Shown: positions 36,401 through 42,400 of the stretch, in pieces
Layout: each line of letters begins with the position of its first letter
Position numbering within the stretch: position 1 is the stretch's first letter
NCBI RefSeq assembly: GCF_009914755.1
Contig: NC_060943.1
Strand: one strand, 5' to 3'
DNA: 64,000 nucleotides
Source of the DNA: the human T2T-CHM13v2.0 reference genome, Homo sapiens
The notes under the pieces: generated by a model
What the model was told of the DNA's origin: nothing
Seen by the model: only the letters and a program-made list of their open reading frames with translations
Database searches by the model: none
Translations under genes and position numbers: made by a program

Positions 36401-39400
36401 CAATCCGCCCGCCTCTGCCTCCCAAAGTACTAGGATTATAGACATGAGCCACCACACCTGGCCCAAAATGTGATTTTCTTCTTCTTTTTTTGTTTTTTTT
36501 GAGATGGAGTTTCGCTCTGTTGCCCAGGCTAGAGTGCAATGGCACAATCTCAGCTCACTGCAACCTCCGCCACTGAGGTTCAAGTGATTCTCCAGCCCTA
36601 GCCTCCCAAGTAGATGGGACTACAAGTACGTGCCACCACGTCCAGCTAATTTTTGAATTTTTAGTGTAGACAGGGTTTCGCCATGTTGGCCATGTTGGCC
36701 AGGCTGGTCTCGAACTCCTGACCTCAGCTGATCCACCTGCCTCGGCCTCCCAAAGTGCTGGGATTATAGGCATGAGCTACTGCGCCTGGCCCAAAATGTG
36801 ATTTTTAATACCAAAGAGCTGTATGAATGCTAAATGCGTTGCGTATTTCACCTTTGGTAAACTTTTTTTTTTTTTTTTTTGGAGACGAAGTCTCGCTCGT
36901 CCCCCAGGCTGGAGTGCAATGGTGCGATCTCAGCTCACTGCAACCTCCATCTCCCAGGTTCAAGTGATTCTCCTGCCTCAGCCTCCTGTGTAGCTGGGAT
37001 TACAGGTGACTGCCACCACACCTGACTAATTTTTCTATTTTTAGAGAGACAAGGTTTCATCATGTTGGCCAGACTGCTCTTGAACTCCTGACCTCAGGTG
37101 ATCCAACTGCCTTGGCCTCCCAAGGTGCTGGGATTATAGGCGTGAGCCACCATGCCTGGCCAGGCCACCTTTGGTAAACTTCTACAAGTGATTCTAATTA
37201 TGAAGTGCTTTGCAAAATCAGGGTATTTTTAATCCTGAAAAGTTTTAAGAAACCCAAAGAGCTTGATAAATCCATATGATACCCACGTACACCCATGCAA
37301 TATCTTCATTTTAAAAATGTTTATTTAAAATTTTATTTTAAAAATTTCAGGACAGGCACAGTGGCTTACACCTATAATCCTAGCAATTTGGGAGGCTGAG
37401 GCAGGAGGATGACTTGAGCCCACGAGTTTGAGATCACCCTGGGCAATAGAGGGAGTCTTCATCTCTACAAAAAAATTTAAAAAGTAGGCCAGGCATGCTG
37501 GCTTACGCCTGTAATCCTAGCAATTTGGGAGGCCAAGGCAGGCAGATTGCCTGAGCTCAGGAGTTCGAGACCAGCCTGGGCAACACGGTGAAACCCTGTC
37601 TCTACTAAAATACGAAAAATTAGCCGGGCATGGCAGCCTGCACCTGTAGTCCCAGCTACTCTGGAGGCTGAGGTAAAAGAATTGTTTGAACCCGGGAGGC
37701 AGAGGTTGCAGTGAGCCAAGATCATGTCACTGCACTCCAGCCTGGGGGACAGAGTGAGACTCTGTCTCCAAAAAAAAAAAAAAAATCAAAAAAGTAGCCA
37801 GGTGTGGTGGTGTGTGCTGTGGTTCCAGCTACCCAGAAGCCTGAGGTGGGAGGATTGTTTGAGACGAGGAGGTTGAGTCTAAAGTGGGCCCAGATCATGC
37901 CACTGCACTCTAGCCTGGGCAACAGAGTGAGACTCTGTCTCAAAAAATAAATAAATAAATAAATAAATAAAATTTCAAGACTACAGAAAAGTTTTTTTTA
38001 AAAAACATACTTTATTATTTTGGAAATGGAGTCTCCCTCTGTCACCCAGACTGGAGTGTAGTGGTGCCATCTTGGCTCACAGCAACCTCCACCTTCTAGG
38101 TTGTGGAAAGTAAAAAAGTTTCTCTTTAAAGTTTTTATTAAATAATAAATCACAAGTGTTAGAAATAATATTTTTAATTAACTTTTTTTAAGCCTCTTTG
38201 CTTTGTGTTAGTAACTCTTTTTTAAACCATATCTTATGTAGTTGTTAGATATAAGGAAATAAGTACCTTCTGTGTCCTTGTACATTAACCAAGATATTTG
38301 GTCTCGACGTGCTCAAGCATGTCCCAGCTCACAGCTTATGCCCTTTCCTTATTTGGAAATGTTATTACTTCTCCAAGTCTTTTGGCAAGCAACTTCCTCT
38401 TTTCCTTTGTTCTCCATTGCCTTTACCTATTTAAGAAAGTTTTTTAAGTTGTTAGCCAATTGGGTTTAGCTTAGACTGTGAGGTCCAGCTCCAACCAATG
38501 GAGACAGGACACAGCAGTAAGGACCCAATGCATAAGGGATAAATATTCCTGCCTTTCTTTGTTCATTGTGCTCTCCTGGCAGGATTGCTGATGGGCAGCA
38601 CCCTTTCTACAGAAAGTAAAATTGCCTTGCTGAGAAAACTTTTTGTCTGAATGCTAATTTTTCCTTGCGACACCAAGAAACAAGCATTTTGATTCTAACA
38701 CAGGTTCAAGTGATTCTCCTGCCTCAGCCTCCCAAAGAGCAGGGATAACAGGCACGCACTACAATATCCAGCTAATTTTTTTTTGTTTGTTTTTTGTTTT
38801 TTGTATTTTTAGTAGCGATGAGGTTTTGCTATGTTGGCCAGGCTGGTCTTGAATTCCTGACTTTGGGTGATCCACCCACCTCGGCCTCCCAAAGTGCTGG
38901 GATTACAGGCAAGAGAAGTTTTTCTTAAAATAGTACAACAGATTTTAGGCTCTTCTGTATCTGCCCACCGAGCTACTCTGTTCCTGGCTTAGAGAACCAG
39001 GAGAAGGGGAAGGGGAATCACCTGCCACATGCTGGAGGTTGGAGCCTGTGGCACCATGGCTTGCCTCACTGCAGTTGGTGGTGGCAACAGAGGCTGCAGT
39101 GTGGCCAGAGTGGCTTTTCTGGCTTTGCCCGCCCAGCCACTCTGAGAAAGGCTGGAGGAGAAAGTGAAGGAGGAGTCACCTGTGGTGAGGTGGAGTTTGG
39201 AGCTTGCAGATGGCACGGCTCTGTGGCTCACCTCCTACAGTTGTGGCGGTGACAGCGAGGGAGACTTCAGCCTGACTGGAGTAGAAGGGTGCTCGTGAAG
39301 GCTAGAGTATTGCCTCCAAGATGCAGCAGTGGATACTCAGGTTTCAGGAGACTCCACTGTCCATGGCGAATCCATGGTCTGCCAGCGCAGTTTTAGAGAG

Positions 39401-42400
39401 AGAATGTGCCACCGCAGGTGTCATCCTCATGTGCACCCTGGCAGGTAGCCATCTGAAGATTTCAAGGACAACCTGGCGGGGGAGCAGACCAGCGACACTT
39501 CCTCTGAACAGGTTCTTGCTGTTCACTTGACAGACTCAGCAACTCAGGCAAGTGTTCACATGGAAGATATCCTGGAAGGATACCAAGCCAGTGAAAGCTC
39601 AGATGAAAATGCCCCATGGCTTTGGAAGGCCAATGAATGTGCCAAGGAAAAAGGTGCCATGGAGGATCCTCTGGAAGACCTCGCCAATGAAATTTCAGAT
39701 TAGGACACCCCACTGGATTTGAAGGCCAAAGAACGTGCCAAGGAAAAAGTTCCCATGGAGGATACCCTGGTGGAAGACCTTGGAAACGAAAGCTCAGATA
39801 AGGATGCCTCACTGGACTTGAAGGTTGACAAACGCATGAAAGAAAAAGTTCCCACAGAGGATACCCTGGTGAAAGACCTTGCCAATGAAAGCTCAGATGA
39901 GGACGCTCTACTGGATTGAAGGCTGATGAATTCACCAAGGAAAAGTTCCCACGGAGGATACCCTGGTGGAAGACCTTGCCAACAAAAGCTCAGATGGGGA
40001 TGTTTTGCTAAATTTAAAGGCTGACAAATGAGCCAAGGAAAAAGTTCCCATGGAGGATACCCTGGTGGAAGACCTCACCAACGAAAGCTCACATGAGGAT
40101 GCTCCACTGGATCTGAATGCCGACAAATGTGCCAAGGAAAAAGTTCCCATAGATAATCCAGTGAAAGAATTTGCCAACAACATCAAGGAAAAGGAGGCCC
40201 CATGTAATGTGAAGGCACCCTAGGGAGTCCAGGTAAATGATTTCAAGGATGACCTGGCGGGGATGGTGATCAGTGAAAAGTCCCCAGAAGCAGCCCTATC
40301 TCTTCACAGGGCAAAATGAGATGCCAAGAAAAAAGATTGCTTCGCCATTCTTGTAGCAGAGCTTCCTGAAGAGATGTCCTCAGGGCAAGTGCTGGCCGTT
40401 GTCACCGTGAAAGGCATCAAGAAAAATGGTGGCTCTGAGGACAGCTTTTCTAAAACCAGTAATGACAAAGACTCTTCCTGTAGTGGAGACACTCAAGCTT
40501 CTGGAGCAGATATGGAAGAGTCCAATCATGCAGATGACCATCAGCATATGCCAACAAGTACTCTCCCAGCACCTGCAGAAAAAACAATAGAGACAAAGCC
40601 TGAAAAGGCAGAAGAAATGTAACCCAGTGAGTTCAAGGAGGATGAGGATGCTGAAGAGCCTGACCTGACCTGTTGTGACCTTTGTTTTTTATGCTAGAAG
40701 TCCCTACAGATTTTTTGAACACCTGGAAGGGCCGGGTCACAAGACCTCACCCTGGCCCAGCAACCATCTGGACCGTGAGAGTTTTGGGGATTTTGCTACT
40801 CTCTCTGGACTTTTACATTCTCTTAATTTTTTAAAAAATATTCTTTCTTTAACCTGTTTTAAGATGCAAGCTGTCATTGCGTCATCATAGTTACATTTTA
40901 TTACTCAAATAATTTTTCAATTGTTTTACTAGTTTTTTTTGGATCTTTGTCCACTGGTTTTAGAGTTTTTGTAATTTTGATAAATGATCTTTTATGCTTT
41001 GTATCATTTTCTTAATGACTTACCTTAGTTTTTAACAAATCCATGGTACAGTAAGTTATATTAAGACATAGTATTTTTATGTTTTTTTAAATTATACTTT
41101 GGGTTCTGGGGTACATGTGCAGACATGCAGTTTTGTTGCATAGGTGCATGTACCATGGTGGTTTGCTGTACCCATCAGCCCGTCACCTGCATTGGGTGTT
41201 TCTCCTGATGCTATCCCTCCCCTGACCCCCCACCCCCCACCGACAGGTCCTGGTGTGTGATGTTTCCCTTCCTGTGTCCATGTGTTCTCATTGTTCAGCT
41301 CCCACTTGAGTGATAACATGCAGTATTTTGTTTTCTACTCTTGTGTTGGTTTGCTGAGAATGATGGTTTCCAGCTTCATCCATGTCCCTGCAAAGGACAT
41401 TAACTCATCCTTTTCTGTGGCCGAATAGTATTCCATGGTGTATATGTGCCATGTTTTCTTTATCTAGTCTATCACTGATGGACAATTGGGTTGGTTCCAA
41501 TTCTTTGCTATTGTGAATAGTGCCATAATAAACATGCATGTGCCTGTGTCTTTATGGTAAAAAAAAATAGTATAATAAATATCCCTATAGTCTCTTTTCC
41601 ATAAACCAAAATTTCTTAAGGTTGGCATCATTGGCATGTGGGGCTGGATAATCTTTATTGTGGGAGCTGCCCTGTGCACTGTAGGATATTTGATAACATC
41701 CCTGGGCTCTATCCACTAGAGAGAAGTTGCCTCCTGCCAGGCACAGTGGCTCATACCCGTAGTCCCAGCACTTTGGGAGGCAGAGACGGGCGGATCATGA
41801 GGTCAGGAGTTCGAGACCAGCCTGGCTAACGTAGCGAAACCCCGTCTACTAAAAATACAAAATATGGGGCCAGGCACAGTGGCTCACACCTGTAATCCCA
41901 GCACTTTGGGAGACCGAGGCAGGCAGATCATGAGATCAGGATATCAAGACCATCCTGGCTAATGCGGTGAAATCCCGTCTCTAGTAAAAATACAAAAAAA
42001 TTAGCCAGGCATGGTGGCAGGCGCCTGTAGTCCCAGCTACTCAGAAGGCTGAGGCAGGAGAATGGCGTGAACCCGGGAGGTGGAGCTTGCAGTGAGCCGA
42101 GATCGTGCCACTGCACTCCAGCCTGGGCGACAGAGCGAGACTCCGTCTCAAAAAAAAAAAAAAAATACAAAGTATGGCCAGGAGTGGTGGCTTACACCTA
42201 TAATCCCAGCACTTTGGGAGGCCGAGGCGGGCAGATCACCTGAGGTCAGGAGTTCGAGACCACCCTGACCAACATGGAGAAACCCCGTCTCTACTAAAAA
42301 TACAAAATTAGCCGGGCATGGTGGCACATGTCTGTAATCCCAGCTACTCAGGAGGCTGAAGCAGGAAAATCGTTTGAACCCAGAAGGTGGAGGTCGCGGT

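What the first reader, a model, noticed from the sequence alone, without database searches (positions are those of the whole stretch)
38927..41577. Orphan retrocopy in DKKL1 intron 4: fossil mRNA of an unrecognised acidic-repeat, zinc-finger gene
Seen in the sequence: a ~2.6-kb non-TE block with L1-retrotransposition hallmarks (TT|AAAA target, 14-bp TSD matching 12/14, A-tail). A Kozak-perfect gcaccATGG at 39056 (in frame with ATG 39029) opens a frame that can be followed for over 500 codons through scattered stops and a few frameshifts. It reads [10 protein letters not shown]...[23 protein letters not shown]...33-aa repeats...[23 protein letters not shown]...[39 protein letters not shown] do not recognise the parent protein. 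Inference: the parent was expressed in the primate germline and may be unannotated, lineage-restricted or lost in humans.
Basis: partly seen in the sequence, partly recalled or inferred. Interest (0 to 1): 0.85.

Follow-up and report, generated by a model that had tools for sequence, protein, structure and literature searches.

The report
Dead retrocopy of a FAM153-like gene
This is an old, broken, intron-less copy of the messenger RNA of a vanished relative of the human FAM153 genes; it preserves that gene's acidic repeats, but the claimed zinc finger is probably a reading-frame artefact.

Summary
The block is real. It runs 38941-41558 and is followed by an A9 run. It is flanked by a 12/14 target-site duplication at a TT|AAAA site, and AATAAA lies 26 nt before the A run. 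It is spliced at five junctions that are introns in paralogous human loci, so it is an L1-made processed pseudogene.

It is not a copy of an unrecognisable gene. Its 3' exons align exon by exon, at the same intron positions, with FAM153B. They align better with an unnamed, decayed FAM153-like copy inside the CEP192P1 locus (chr5q35.2) and with a 1-kb fragment upstream of BUB1 (chr2q13). Its seven 95-99-nt acidic units correspond to a FAM153-type exon.

No parent above 84% identity is visible in T2T-CHM13. The repeat array has no other copy in the genome. "Orphan" therefore holds for the direct parent, not for the family.

The zinc finger is not supported. It needs a frameshift repair and reads into what is 3'UTR in the family. 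Without repair the frame ends ...CFLC*KSLQIF*, and the two chr5 relatives also stop at that point.

The Kozak ATG at 39056 lies in a 5' exon built from a low-copy repeat and is absent from 2 of 2 paralogs examined.

This is an ordinary kind of object with modest interest as a fossil of a fast-evolving duplicated gene family.

The parts
38927..38940 (+). 5' target-site duplication, preceded by TT (TT|AAAA endonuclease site)
   Evidence: 12/14 match to 41564-41577; 73 of 5000 shuffles reach it
   Evidence: homology to the chr5:179.386 Mb and chr18:15.026 Mb copies starts within 3 nt of 38941 and ends where those copies have GT donors; ATG 39056 is GCG/GTG there
39113..39305 (+). exon 2, a second diverged copy of the same unit
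   Evidence: in chr5 and chr18 it lies 1.5-1.6 kb downstream of exon 1, with a tag| acceptor (chr18) and a CAG|gtgg donor (chr5)
39306..39458 (+). exon 3, with ATG at 39321-39323 (candidate start, out of frame with the repeats in the present sequence)
   Evidence: the chr2:131.84 Mb paralog has cccag| before it and GAAG|gtac after it, and keeps the ATG
39459..39553 (+). module A (DFKDNLAG...LAVH), weakly like the 81-nt repeated exon of FAM153
   Evidence: protein alignment reached by 31 of 5000 shuffles; DNA alignment not significant (102 of 2000)
39554..40237 (+). seven tandem units of 95-99 nt (33-aa acidic repeat); unit 4 has two 1-nt deletions; units 2, 4 and 5 and the divergent seventh carry private stops
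   Evidence: homologous to a single exon in the chr5 CEP192P1-locus copy whose intron flanks match those of the FAM153B N-terminal exon; no other copy in the genome
40238..40419 (+). module B (DFKDDLAG...SLH) and a third module ([16 protein letters not shown])
   Evidence: DNA alignment to the FAM153B 81-nt exon reached by 3 of 2000 shuffles; 40350-40412 matches chr5:176720383-176720324, E 4.5e-4
40420..40619 (+). block shared with the chr2q13 fragment; its last ~85 nt correspond to FAM153 exon X (Pfam FAM153 positions 88-114)
   Evidence: 83-89% to chr2; nhmmer E 3.3e-8 to the FAM153B exon X region
40620..40709 (+). exon Y, the acidic, Cys-rich C-terminal exon ([28 protein letters not shown])
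   Evidence: an 88-nt intron lies before it in FAM153B and the chr5 copy; the donor and downstream intron are conserved in FAM153B, the chr5 copy and chr2
   Evidence: starts exactly at the ttgcag| acceptor of FAM153B and of the chr5 copy; 6 chr5/chr16 paralogs at 70-77%
41086..41558 (-). 5'-truncated L1 3' end, antisense to the mRNA, supplying AATAAA (41527-41532) and the cleavage site
   Evidence: 9322 first-look candidates; best non-self 86-88%; absent at this point from 6 of 6 paralogs
41559..41567 (+). remnant of the poly(A) tail (9 A, the last 4 shared with the duplication)
41564..41577 (+). 3' target-site duplication
38161..40599 (-). terminal exon of lncRNA LOC101928295 (NR_110729.1), antisense over most of the retrocopy; its acceptor lies inside the retrocopy
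   Evidence: and the annotation given; ct at 40600-40601 with a purine-rich stretch just beyond it, which reads as ag plus a pyrimidine tract on the minus strand

Best explanation
The block is a dead processed pseudogene.

Mechanism (inferred from the hallmarks):
- A spliced, polyadenylated mRNA of at least six exons was reverse-transcribed by the L1 machinery.
- It was inserted at a TT|AAAA site in DKKL1 intron 4, in the same orientation as DKKL1, probably tens of millions of years ago.

Identity of the mRNA:
- It came from a now missing or decayed member of the FAM153 lineage. I call this lineage 'type 2'. It has an acidic, Cys-rich C-terminus where FAM153 has a basic one.
- Intron-bearing relics of type 2 survive inside the CEP192P1 locus on chr5q35.2 and as a 1-kb island upstream of BUB1 on chr2q13.
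- The transcript carried 5' exons built from a low-copy duplicon unit.
- It carried a run of 33-aa acidic units, each equivalent to a FAM153-type exon.
- It used the family's terminal exon, extended into an antisense L1 whose AATAAA served as the polyadenylation signal.

Present state:
- Since insertion the copy has decayed neutrally.
- Its only visible present use is passive. Its antisense strand provides the splice acceptor and most of the last exon of lncRNA LOC101928295.

The family's reading frame ends at the exon Y/last-exon border.

Shown versus inferred: the structure, the junctions, the homologies and the lack of a close parent are shown. Germline expression, coding status at the time of copying, and the age are inferred.
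For: Retroposition:
- TSD 12/14 at TT|AAAA, an A9 run, and AATAAA 26 nt upstream of the A run.
- Five exon-exon junctions fall exactly where paralogs have introns with splice signals:
  - 39112/3 and 39305/6: chr5:179.38 Mb and chr18:15.03 Mb, introns of about 1.5 kb;
  - 39305/6 and 39458/9: chr2:131.84 Mb;
  - about 40619/20: an 88-nt GT-AG intron in FAM153B and in the chr5 copy;
  - 40709/10: a 1.4-kb intron in the chr5 copy and about 1.5 kb in FAM153B.

FAM153 kinship:
- Collinear nhmmer hits of the retrocopy on FAM153B: exon X region E 3.3e-8, last exon E 1.6e-8 and 1.2e-13, exon Y in position only (E 0.75).
- The chr5 copy is homologous to FAM153B over kilobases of intron and exon at 70-78% and to the retrocopy at 75-81% in exons.
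- The retro repeat unit aligns to an exon of the chr5 copy whose flanking intron sequence matches that of the FAM153B exon covering Pfam FAM153 positions 10-37.
- Module B aligns to the FAM153B 81-nt repeated exon in the same frame; 3 of 2000 shuffles reach the score.

Frame end:
- FAM153B...LKCWDIFNIF*.
- chr5 copy...LTCCGLCTYAGNP*.
- Retrocopy, unrepaired...[16 protein letters not shown].
- chr2 has TGG where the retrocopy has TAG.

Orphan status:
- Best non-self DNA match is 84% over 282 nt.
- The repeat array finds only itself by DNA (1 of 1 candidate) and by protein.
Against: - The Pfam FAM153 model does not match any retro piece, even at E <= 10. Its whole-genome scan hits 14 chr5 and 4 chr16 exons but nothing in this window.
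- At protein level, the exon X similarity is not significant (477 of 5000 shuffles). Exon 3 shows no similarity to the FAM153B N-terminal exon (1672 of 2000 shuffles).
- Exon Y is acidic here and basic in FAM153B; the nucleotide alignment is weak (E 0.75).
- No signature of past purifying selection:
  - differences among six units by codon position are 26/197, 21/197 and 34/195;
  - pN/pS against the chr2 fragment is 0.87 over 88 codons.
- The parent may therefore already have been non-coding.
- The 5' exons and the 3' exons are never seen together in one genomic locus that I examined.
- The TSD is AT-rich and only moderately significant (73 of 5000 shuffles). The A tail is short.
- Matches in closed regions of the reference are not shown, so a hidden parent cannot be excluded.
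Confidence: 0.8

Rival explanations
1. One reading: a fossil of an unrecognised zinc-finger protein gene with no annotated relatives. Its frame starts at the Kozak ATG 39056 and ends after a C2H2-like finger (CDLC...H-x5-H).
For: - The strings exist.
- The shifted frame stays open for 71 codons, 40675-40890.
- Pfam, the protein word search, the Atlas and PDB give no name.
Against: - The finger needs a frame switch within a T run.
- After the switch the Cys-to-His spacing is 11, counted by eye. The classical spacing of 12 is recalled, not tested here.
- In FAM153B the same stretch lies after the stop codon, and the second His codon is CGT.
- The chr5 copy stops 2 nt before the junction and has a deletion across the His region.
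- ATG 39056 is not kept in 2 of 2 paralogs examined and sits in a repeated 5' unit.
- Relatives do exist.
Confidence: 0.05
2. The chr2q13 island (chr2:111102728-111103705, 2.4 kb upstream of the BUB1 start) is the remnant of the actual parent gene. The rest of that gene has been deleted.
For: - It is the closest relative: 83.4% over 290 nt and 89.5% in the exon X part.
- It keeps intron sequence on both sides, so it is genomic DNA.
- In a three-way comparison the private changes are 14 for the retrocopy, 9 for chr2 and 22 for chr5, out of 161 sites. That is compatible with equal time since a split.
Against: - It lacks the 88-nt intron and joins one repeat unit directly to the 40420 block, as if it were partly processed itself.
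- Its exon Y and intron are 92.3% identical to the chr5 copy over 703 nt, while its exon X is only 75% identical. It is a mosaic.
- No other retro exon lies within the 30 kb I searched around it.
Confidence: 0.25
3. The antisense L1 was inserted into the retrocopy (or beside it) after retroposition. On this view the true 3' end lies near 41085 and the 12/14 duplication is chance.
For: - 0 of 6 paralogous last exons carry the L1.
- The string ATAGTAT occurs just before the L1 (41069-41075) as well as after it.
- The TSD shuffle test gives only about p = 0.015.
Against: - There is no A run at 41085.
- The sequence after the L1 does not resume homology with the paralogs.
- A minus-strand L1 should be followed by a duplication ending in T-rich sequence, which is absent (the expected TPRT geometry is from general knowledge).
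- AATAAA, a 26-nt spacer, the A run and then the duplication sit exactly in register.
Confidence: 0.08
4. The block arrived as a DNA-level segmental duplication, or as a 3' transduction of a minus-strand L1, and not by retroposition of an mRNA.
For: - Its relatives all lie in duplication-rich regions.
- An L1 end abuts it.
Against: - Five introns are missing precisely.
- Homology to the paralogs stops within 3 nt of the TSD at the 5' end.
- The splice sense is the plus strand, opposite to the L1, and there is no T run at the left end.
Confidence: 0.02

Closest known systems
L1-mediated processed pseudogenes, and 'orphan' retrocopies whose parent is lost (Ciomborowska et al. 2013, PMC3548309; I saw only the search listing and the start of the abstract)
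   Same: - Intron-less copy of a spliced mRNA.
- TT|AAAA target site, TSD, poly(A) remnant and upstream AATAAA.
- No close parent left in the genome.
   Different: - The published orphan retrogenes are described as functional genes that replaced their parents.
- This copy is dead, with six premature stops plus a frameshift.
- More distant relatives of its parent are still annotated.
FAM153A/FAM153B/FAM153CP/FAM153DP (Pfam PF15722), in the chr5q35 and chr16 segmental duplications
   Same: - Collinear homologous exons (repeated acidic exon, exon X, exon Y, last exon).
- Identical intron positions and conserved intron flanks.
- The reading frame ends at the exon Y/last-exon border.
- Architecture of short, tandemly repeated, acidic coding units.
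   Different: - No Pfam match.
- Units of 33 aa, equivalent to the FAM153 N-terminal exon plus about 24 nt of what is intron in FAM153B.
- Acidic, Cys-rich C-terminus instead of a Lys/Arg-rich one.
- Different 5' exons.
- L1-derived polyadenylation site.
- About 70-73% nucleotide identity to FAM153B where alignable.
Unnamed FAM153-like 'type 2' relic inside the CEP192P1 locus (chr5:176716795-176720383, minus strand)
   Same: - Same acidic C-terminal exon: PSELKDEAAEEPELTCCGLC... against [21 protein letters not shown]....
- Same last exon (75-77%).
- One repeat-unit exon and one SSEQV-type exon, in collinear order.
   Different: - Genomic, with introns.
- Only one repeat unit is detectable.
- No L1 in its last exon.
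- 73-82% identity, too low for it to be the direct source unless the event is very old.
C2H2 / matrin-type zinc fingers
   Same: A Cys-x2-Cys followed at a distance by His-x5-His can be spelled out.
   Different: - The two halves are in different frames and different exons.
- The His half is 3'UTR in the relatives.
- No Pfam zinc-finger hit.

Membership tests
L1-mediated processed pseudogene | Lacks the introns of its source gene | tested here: met
   Five junctions coincide with introns in paralogous loci. The true parent was not available, so paralogs stand in for it.
L1-mediated processed pseudogene | 3' poly(A) preceded by a polyadenylation signal | tested here: met
   AATAAA at 41527-41532 and an A9 run at 41559-41567. 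The tail is short.
L1-mediated processed pseudogene | Target-site duplication at an A/T-rich endonuclease site | tested here: met
   12/14 match with a TT|AAAA site; 73 of 5000 shuffles reach it.
L1-mediated processed pseudogene | An identifiable parent gene elsewhere | tested here: not met
   Best non-self match is 84% over 282 nt; the repeat array has no match. Closed regions are not visible.
FAM153 (Pfam PF15722) | Match to the Pfam FAM153 profile | tested here: not met
   No hit for 5 + 5 pieces at E <= 1 and E <= 10. The genome scan with PF15722 gives 18 matches, none on chr19.
FAM153 (Pfam PF15722) | Homologous exons in the same order with the same intron positions | tested here: met
   Exon X, exon Y (positional only) and the last exon match directly. 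The repeat unit and modules match via the chr5 type-2 copy and shuffle tests.
FAM153 (Pfam PF15722) | Same reading frame and the same end of the frame | tested here: inconclusive
   The frames agree in module B and at the L-x-C motif of exon Y. The rest of exon Y is too diverged to align.
C2H2 / matrin-type zinc finger | Cys-x2-Cys ... His-x(3-6)-His in one uninterrupted frame, conserved in relatives | tested here: not met
   The motif needs a frame switch. The relatives stop before the His half. The second His is Arg (CGT) in the FAM153B sequence. No Pfam hit.
Orphan retrogene (functional copy that replaced a lost parent) | Intact, selectively maintained reading frame | tested here: not met
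   Six premature stops plus a frameshift. pN/pS is 0.87.

The most novel reading that the evidence does not exclude
The retrocopy is the only surviving full-length transcript record of a second, acidic-repeat branch of the FAM153 family.

That branch has been dismantled in humans into scattered relics: the CEP192P1-locus copy, the island upstream of BUB1, and 5' exon units spread through pericentromeric duplications.

The contrast between well-kept introns and strongly diverged exons in these relics would mark FAM153 as a duplication-embedded, fast-evolving gene family. I recall this pattern being described for NPIP/morpheus. The contrast seen here is 92% against 75-85% between chr2 and chr5, together with near-identical intron flanks around very different exon bodies in FAM153B and the chr5 copy.

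An intact orthologue with a seven-fold or longer 33-aa array might still be expressed in some primates.
Probability: 0.2. Interest if true: 0.5.

Novelty: new member of a known kind. Interest (0 to 1): 0.3.

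Why it matters
- As an object it is ordinary: one more dead processed pseudogene in an intron.
- Its value is as a record. It fixes the mature exon structure of an otherwise lost paralogue of a poorly understood human gene family that sits in the chr5q35 duplications. That structure comprises the 5' exons, a seven-unit acidic array found nowhere else in the genome, an acidic Cys-rich C-terminus, and an L1-derived poly(A) site.
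- It ties several unnamed relics to that family.
- It corrects an attractive but wrong reading (a novel zinc-finger gene).
- It shows how the purine-rich coding strand of a pseudogene supplies an antisense splice acceptor for an annotated lncRNA.

Tried and rejected
Searches that gave no name:
- Pfam on the stop-free pieces.
- PDB sequences: only a chance E = 0.044 hit.
- ESM Atlas, twice. It holds the window's own ORFs and nothing usable.
- The protein word search with the 100-aa piece: blank. That tool sees only proteins of 55-175 aa for this query and left out 2 sample-only candidates. A full-length relative of several hundred residues could not have been found.
- Rfam: no match.

Ideas tested and dropped:
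- FAM153B N-terminal exon equals retro exon 3: no similarity.
- Purifying selection visible among the repeat units or against chr2: not shown.
- The antisense 158-aa ORF (39462-39938) as a gene: it is the expected by-product of a purine-rich sense strand.
- An independent L1 insertion with its own duplication, 3' transduction, and segmental duplication: see the rival explanations.
- CEP192 itself as parent: no match to the CEP192 gene on chr18. One search scored only 40 of 142 candidates.

Literature:
- 'LOC101928295': 0 papers.
- 'FAM153A/FAM153B/FAM153': 135 papers. The 25 listed are expression or marker studies by their titles.
- In PMC13465055 I read only 'find' passages. 'Primate', 'ortholog', 'paralog' and 'conserved' each occur 0 times.
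- 'FAM153' + 'segmental duplication' + 'primate': 3 papers, none about the family by title or abstract start.
- I therefore found no printed account of FAM153 evolution or of this retrocopy in that library.
- Supplementary tables were closed and not consulted. Lists of retrocopies or pseudogenes in supplements could already contain this locus.
- GENCODE and other pseudogene catalogues could not be consulted.

Full report
WHAT IS THERE

The stretch 38936-41197 carries no masked repeat.

At its left edge, TT is followed by a 14-nt string at 38927-38940. That string recurs with 12 of 14 matches at 41564-41577. It is the best 14-mer match between the two flanks, and 73 of 5000 shuffles reach it.

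Directly before the right copy is a run of nine A (41559-41567). AATAAA lies at 41527-41532, with 26 nt between it and the A run.

The last 473 nt before the A run (41086-41558) are an antisense L1 3' end. A genome search gave 9322 first-look candidates, of which 40 were scored. The best non-self matches are 86-88% over the full length.

TRF finds a 99-nt period (6.1 copies, 77%) at 39554-40150. Aligning the units gives seven units of 95-99 nt from 39554 to 40237.

IT IS SPLICED

Whole-genome searches return no long match. They return short pieces whose ends recur at the same query positions (42 matches listed; 40 of 142 candidates scored). I fetched several of those places and read the edges.

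- Exon 1 (38941-39112) and exon 2 (39113-39305) lie 1.5-1.6 kb apart on chr5 (179.386/179.384 Mb) and chr18 (15.026/15.028 Mb).
  - A GT donor follows exon 1 there.
  - A tag| acceptor precedes exon 2 (chr18).
  - A CAG|gtgg donor follows exon 2 (chr5).
- Homology to these copies begins within 3 nt of the end of the left duplication. The copies themselves remain similar to each other further upstream.
- Exon 3 (39306-39458) has cccag| before it and GAAG|gtac after it in a copy at chr2:131.84 Mb.
- Near the 3' end, two genomic relatives have an 88-nt GT-AG intron where the retrocopy is continuous (about 40619/40620). They have an intron of 1.4-1.5 kb where the retrocopy joins ...CCCTACAG to ATTTTTTG at 40709/40710.

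Five precise intron losses, the duplication, the TT|AAAA site, the signal and the tail make this an L1-mediated processed pseudogene.

The polyadenylation signal sits inside the antisense L1. None of the six paralogous last exons on chr5 and chr16 carries that L1 (0 of 6). The L1 therefore entered the 3'UTR of the particular parent. Less likely, it entered the retrocopy later (see rival explanations).

WHAT GENE IT COPIES

The relatives at the 3' end are the key.

1. One is FAM153B (chr5:176.61-176.67 Mb).
   - The retrocopy gives collinear nhmmer hits there.
     - Exon X region: E 3.3e-8.
     - Last exon: E 1.6e-8 and 1.2e-13, starting exactly at the ttgcag| acceptor.
     - Exon Y: in position only, E 0.75.
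   - Exon X is the exon that Pfam's FAM153 model covers at positions 88-114.

2. The second is an unnamed, decayed copy inside the CEP192P1 locus (chr5:176716795-176720383, minus strand).
   - It is homologous to FAM153B across kilobases of intron and exon at 70-78%.
   - It matches the retrocopy at 75-81% in exon X, exon Y and the last exon.
   - It shares the retrocopy's acidic exon Y.
   - It has one exon that aligns with the retrocopy's repeat unit (E 6.9e-4; alignment).
   - The intron sequence on both sides of that exon matches the flanks of the FAM153B exon that Pfam covers at positions 10-37.
   - The 33-aa unit therefore corresponds to a FAM153-type exon plus about 24 nt that are intron in FAM153B.

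3. The third is a 1-kb island at chr2:111102728-111103705, 2.4 kb upstream of the BUB1 start.
   - It is the closest relative: 83.4% over 290 nt, and a protein match of E 8.8e-19.

In addition, module B of the retrocopy (about 40246-40315) aligns over almost its whole length, and in the same frame, with FAM153B's 81-nt repeated exon.
- DNA alignment of module B: 3 of 2000 shuffles reach the score.
- Peptide alignments of modules A and B: 31 and 34 of 5000.
- DNA alignment of module A: not significant, 102 of 2000.

Against this kinship:
- The Pfam FAM153 profile matches none of the retro pieces.
- The genome scan with that profile finds 14 chr5 and 4 chr16 exons and nothing here.
- Exon X is not significant as a peptide (477 of 5000).
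- Exon 3 is unlike the FAM153B N-terminal exon.

I therefore call the parent a FAM153-related 'type 2' gene. It is not a FAM153 member by the Pfam test.

ORPHAN OR NOT

- The repeat array (39440-40430) finds only itself in T2T-CHM13 by DNA (1 of 1 candidate).
- By protein it also finds only itself. All 3 matches and both matches are inside this block.
- The best non-self match anywhere is 84% over 282 nt.
- The direct parent is therefore not visible in the human reference. Matches in closed regions are not shown, and no other primate genome was available.

The chr2 island may be what is left of the parent, but it is odd.
- It keeps intron sequence on both sides.
- It lacks the 88-nt intron.
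- It joins one repeat unit straight to the 40420 block.
- It is 92.3% identical to the chr5 copy over 703 nt of exon Y plus intron, yet only 75% identical in exon X. In exon X it is 89.5% identical to the retrocopy.
- I cannot explain this mosaic.

THE ZINC FINGER AND THE START CODON

Read without any repair, the frame that carries the acidic repeats and [19 protein letters not shown] continues as FLC, stop, KSLQIF, stop. The last stop (TGA 40716-40718) lies 7-9 nt into the last exon.

- The first of those stops is TGG in the chr2 island.
- FAM153B ends 12 nt before the same exon border.
- The chr5 copy ends 2 nt before it.

In FAM153B the codon at the second His is CGT. The chr5 copy has a deletion there. 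The zinc finger is most likely an artefact.

The Kozak ATG at 39056 sits in exon 1. It reads GCG and GTG in the two paralogs examined, out of the ten or more exon-1 matches listed. An ATG at 39321 in exon 3 is kept in the one paralog of that exon examined. In the present sequence it is out of frame with the repeats, so the true start is undetermined.

STATE AND AGE

From 39449 to the end I count:
- premature stops at 39701, 40029, 40221, 40317, 40620 and 40695;
- two 1-nt deletions in unit 4, which shift the frame and create a further stop at 39917.

Several of these are private to one unit or absent from chr2. That fits decay after copying.

There is no detectable trace of earlier purifying selection.
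- Codon-position differences are 26/197, 21/197 and 34/195.
- pN/pS against chr2 is 0.87 over 88 codons.
- Whether the parent was still coding is therefore inferred only from the family's frame.

Age indicators are rough:
- 14 of 161 sites are private to the retrocopy in a three-way comparison;
- 2 of 14 positions in the duplication are mismatched;
- the L1 fragment is 12-14% from its best matches.

With commonly used primate neutral rates (recalled), these point to some tens of millions of years. I cannot narrow it further.

WHAT IT DOES NOW

Probably nothing in the sense strand. The minus strand is used.
- The last exon of lncRNA LOC101928295 (NR_110729.1) spans 38161-40599 (and the annotation given).
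- Its acceptor is the reverse complement of ct at 40600-40601.
- The purine-rich coding sequence just beyond it supplies the pyrimidine tract.
- No paper mentions this lncRNA in the library searched.
- Rfam finds nothing in the block.

VERDICT

- 'Orphan' is fair for the direct parent.
- The parent's family is recognisable as FAM153-related.
- The zinc finger and the proposed start codon do not hold.
- The object is an unannotated member of a well-known class. It has modest interest as a fossil of a fast-changing, duplication-embedded human gene family.

Noticed in passing
window 38161-40599 (minus strand): The terminal exon of lncRNA LOC101928295 is mostly antisense retrocopy. Its splice acceptor (40600-40601) and pyrimidine tract are the reverse complement of the purine-rich coding strand.
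   Followed up: partly
window 38941-39305; L031 (chr5:179.384-179.386 Mb), L033 (chr13:18.10 Mb), L034 (chr18:15.026-15.028 Mb): Retro exons 1 and 2 are two diverged copies of one 170-190-nt unit. About 30 of the 42 matches listed are to this unit, at 72-85% identity. They lie in chr5q35, in pericentromeric chr9/10/13/14/15/17/18/21/22, in BAGE loci, in ANKRD30B, in CCDC144NL and in a RANBP2 intron. On chr18 the unit lies in both orientations within 1 kb. I did not establish what this unit is.
   Followed up: partly
L015 (chr2:111102728-111103705) against L032 (chr5:176717934-176718786): The chr2 island and the chr5 copy are 92.3% identical over exon Y plus intron but only 75% in exon X. The chr2 island also lacks the 88-nt intron. 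This could reflect a mosaic, gene conversion, or exons diverging faster than introns. It is unexplained.
   Followed up: partly
L039:1440-1630 (FAM153B) against L032:7340-7560 (chr5 copy): Two paralogous exons share closely matching intron flanks but have very different exon bodies (VEMKRQLRRL... against an acidic unit). This suggests unusually fast exon change in this family.
   Followed up: no
window 39462-39938 (minus strand): The longest open frame in the block (158 aa) is antisense to the repeats. It is most likely a by-product of the purine-rich sense strand.
   Followed up: no
window 40800-41050; L022, L024 (chr6), L023 (chr12): The distal part of the family's last exon also has weak matches (64-69%) at three unrelated places. 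It may contain an old, unmasked interspersed repeat.
   Followed up: no
window 41527-41532: An AATAAA in the sense orientation of DKKL1 sits inside DKKL1 intron 4. Whether it causes any premature polyadenylation of DKKL1 transcripts was not examined.
   Followed up: no
chr5:176716795-176720383 (inside the CEP192P1 annotation): A decayed FAM153-like gene copy with an acidic C-terminal exon lies within a locus annotated only as a CEP192 pseudogene. It is about 46 kb beyond the annotated 3' end of FAM153B and in inverted orientation to it.
   Followed up: partly
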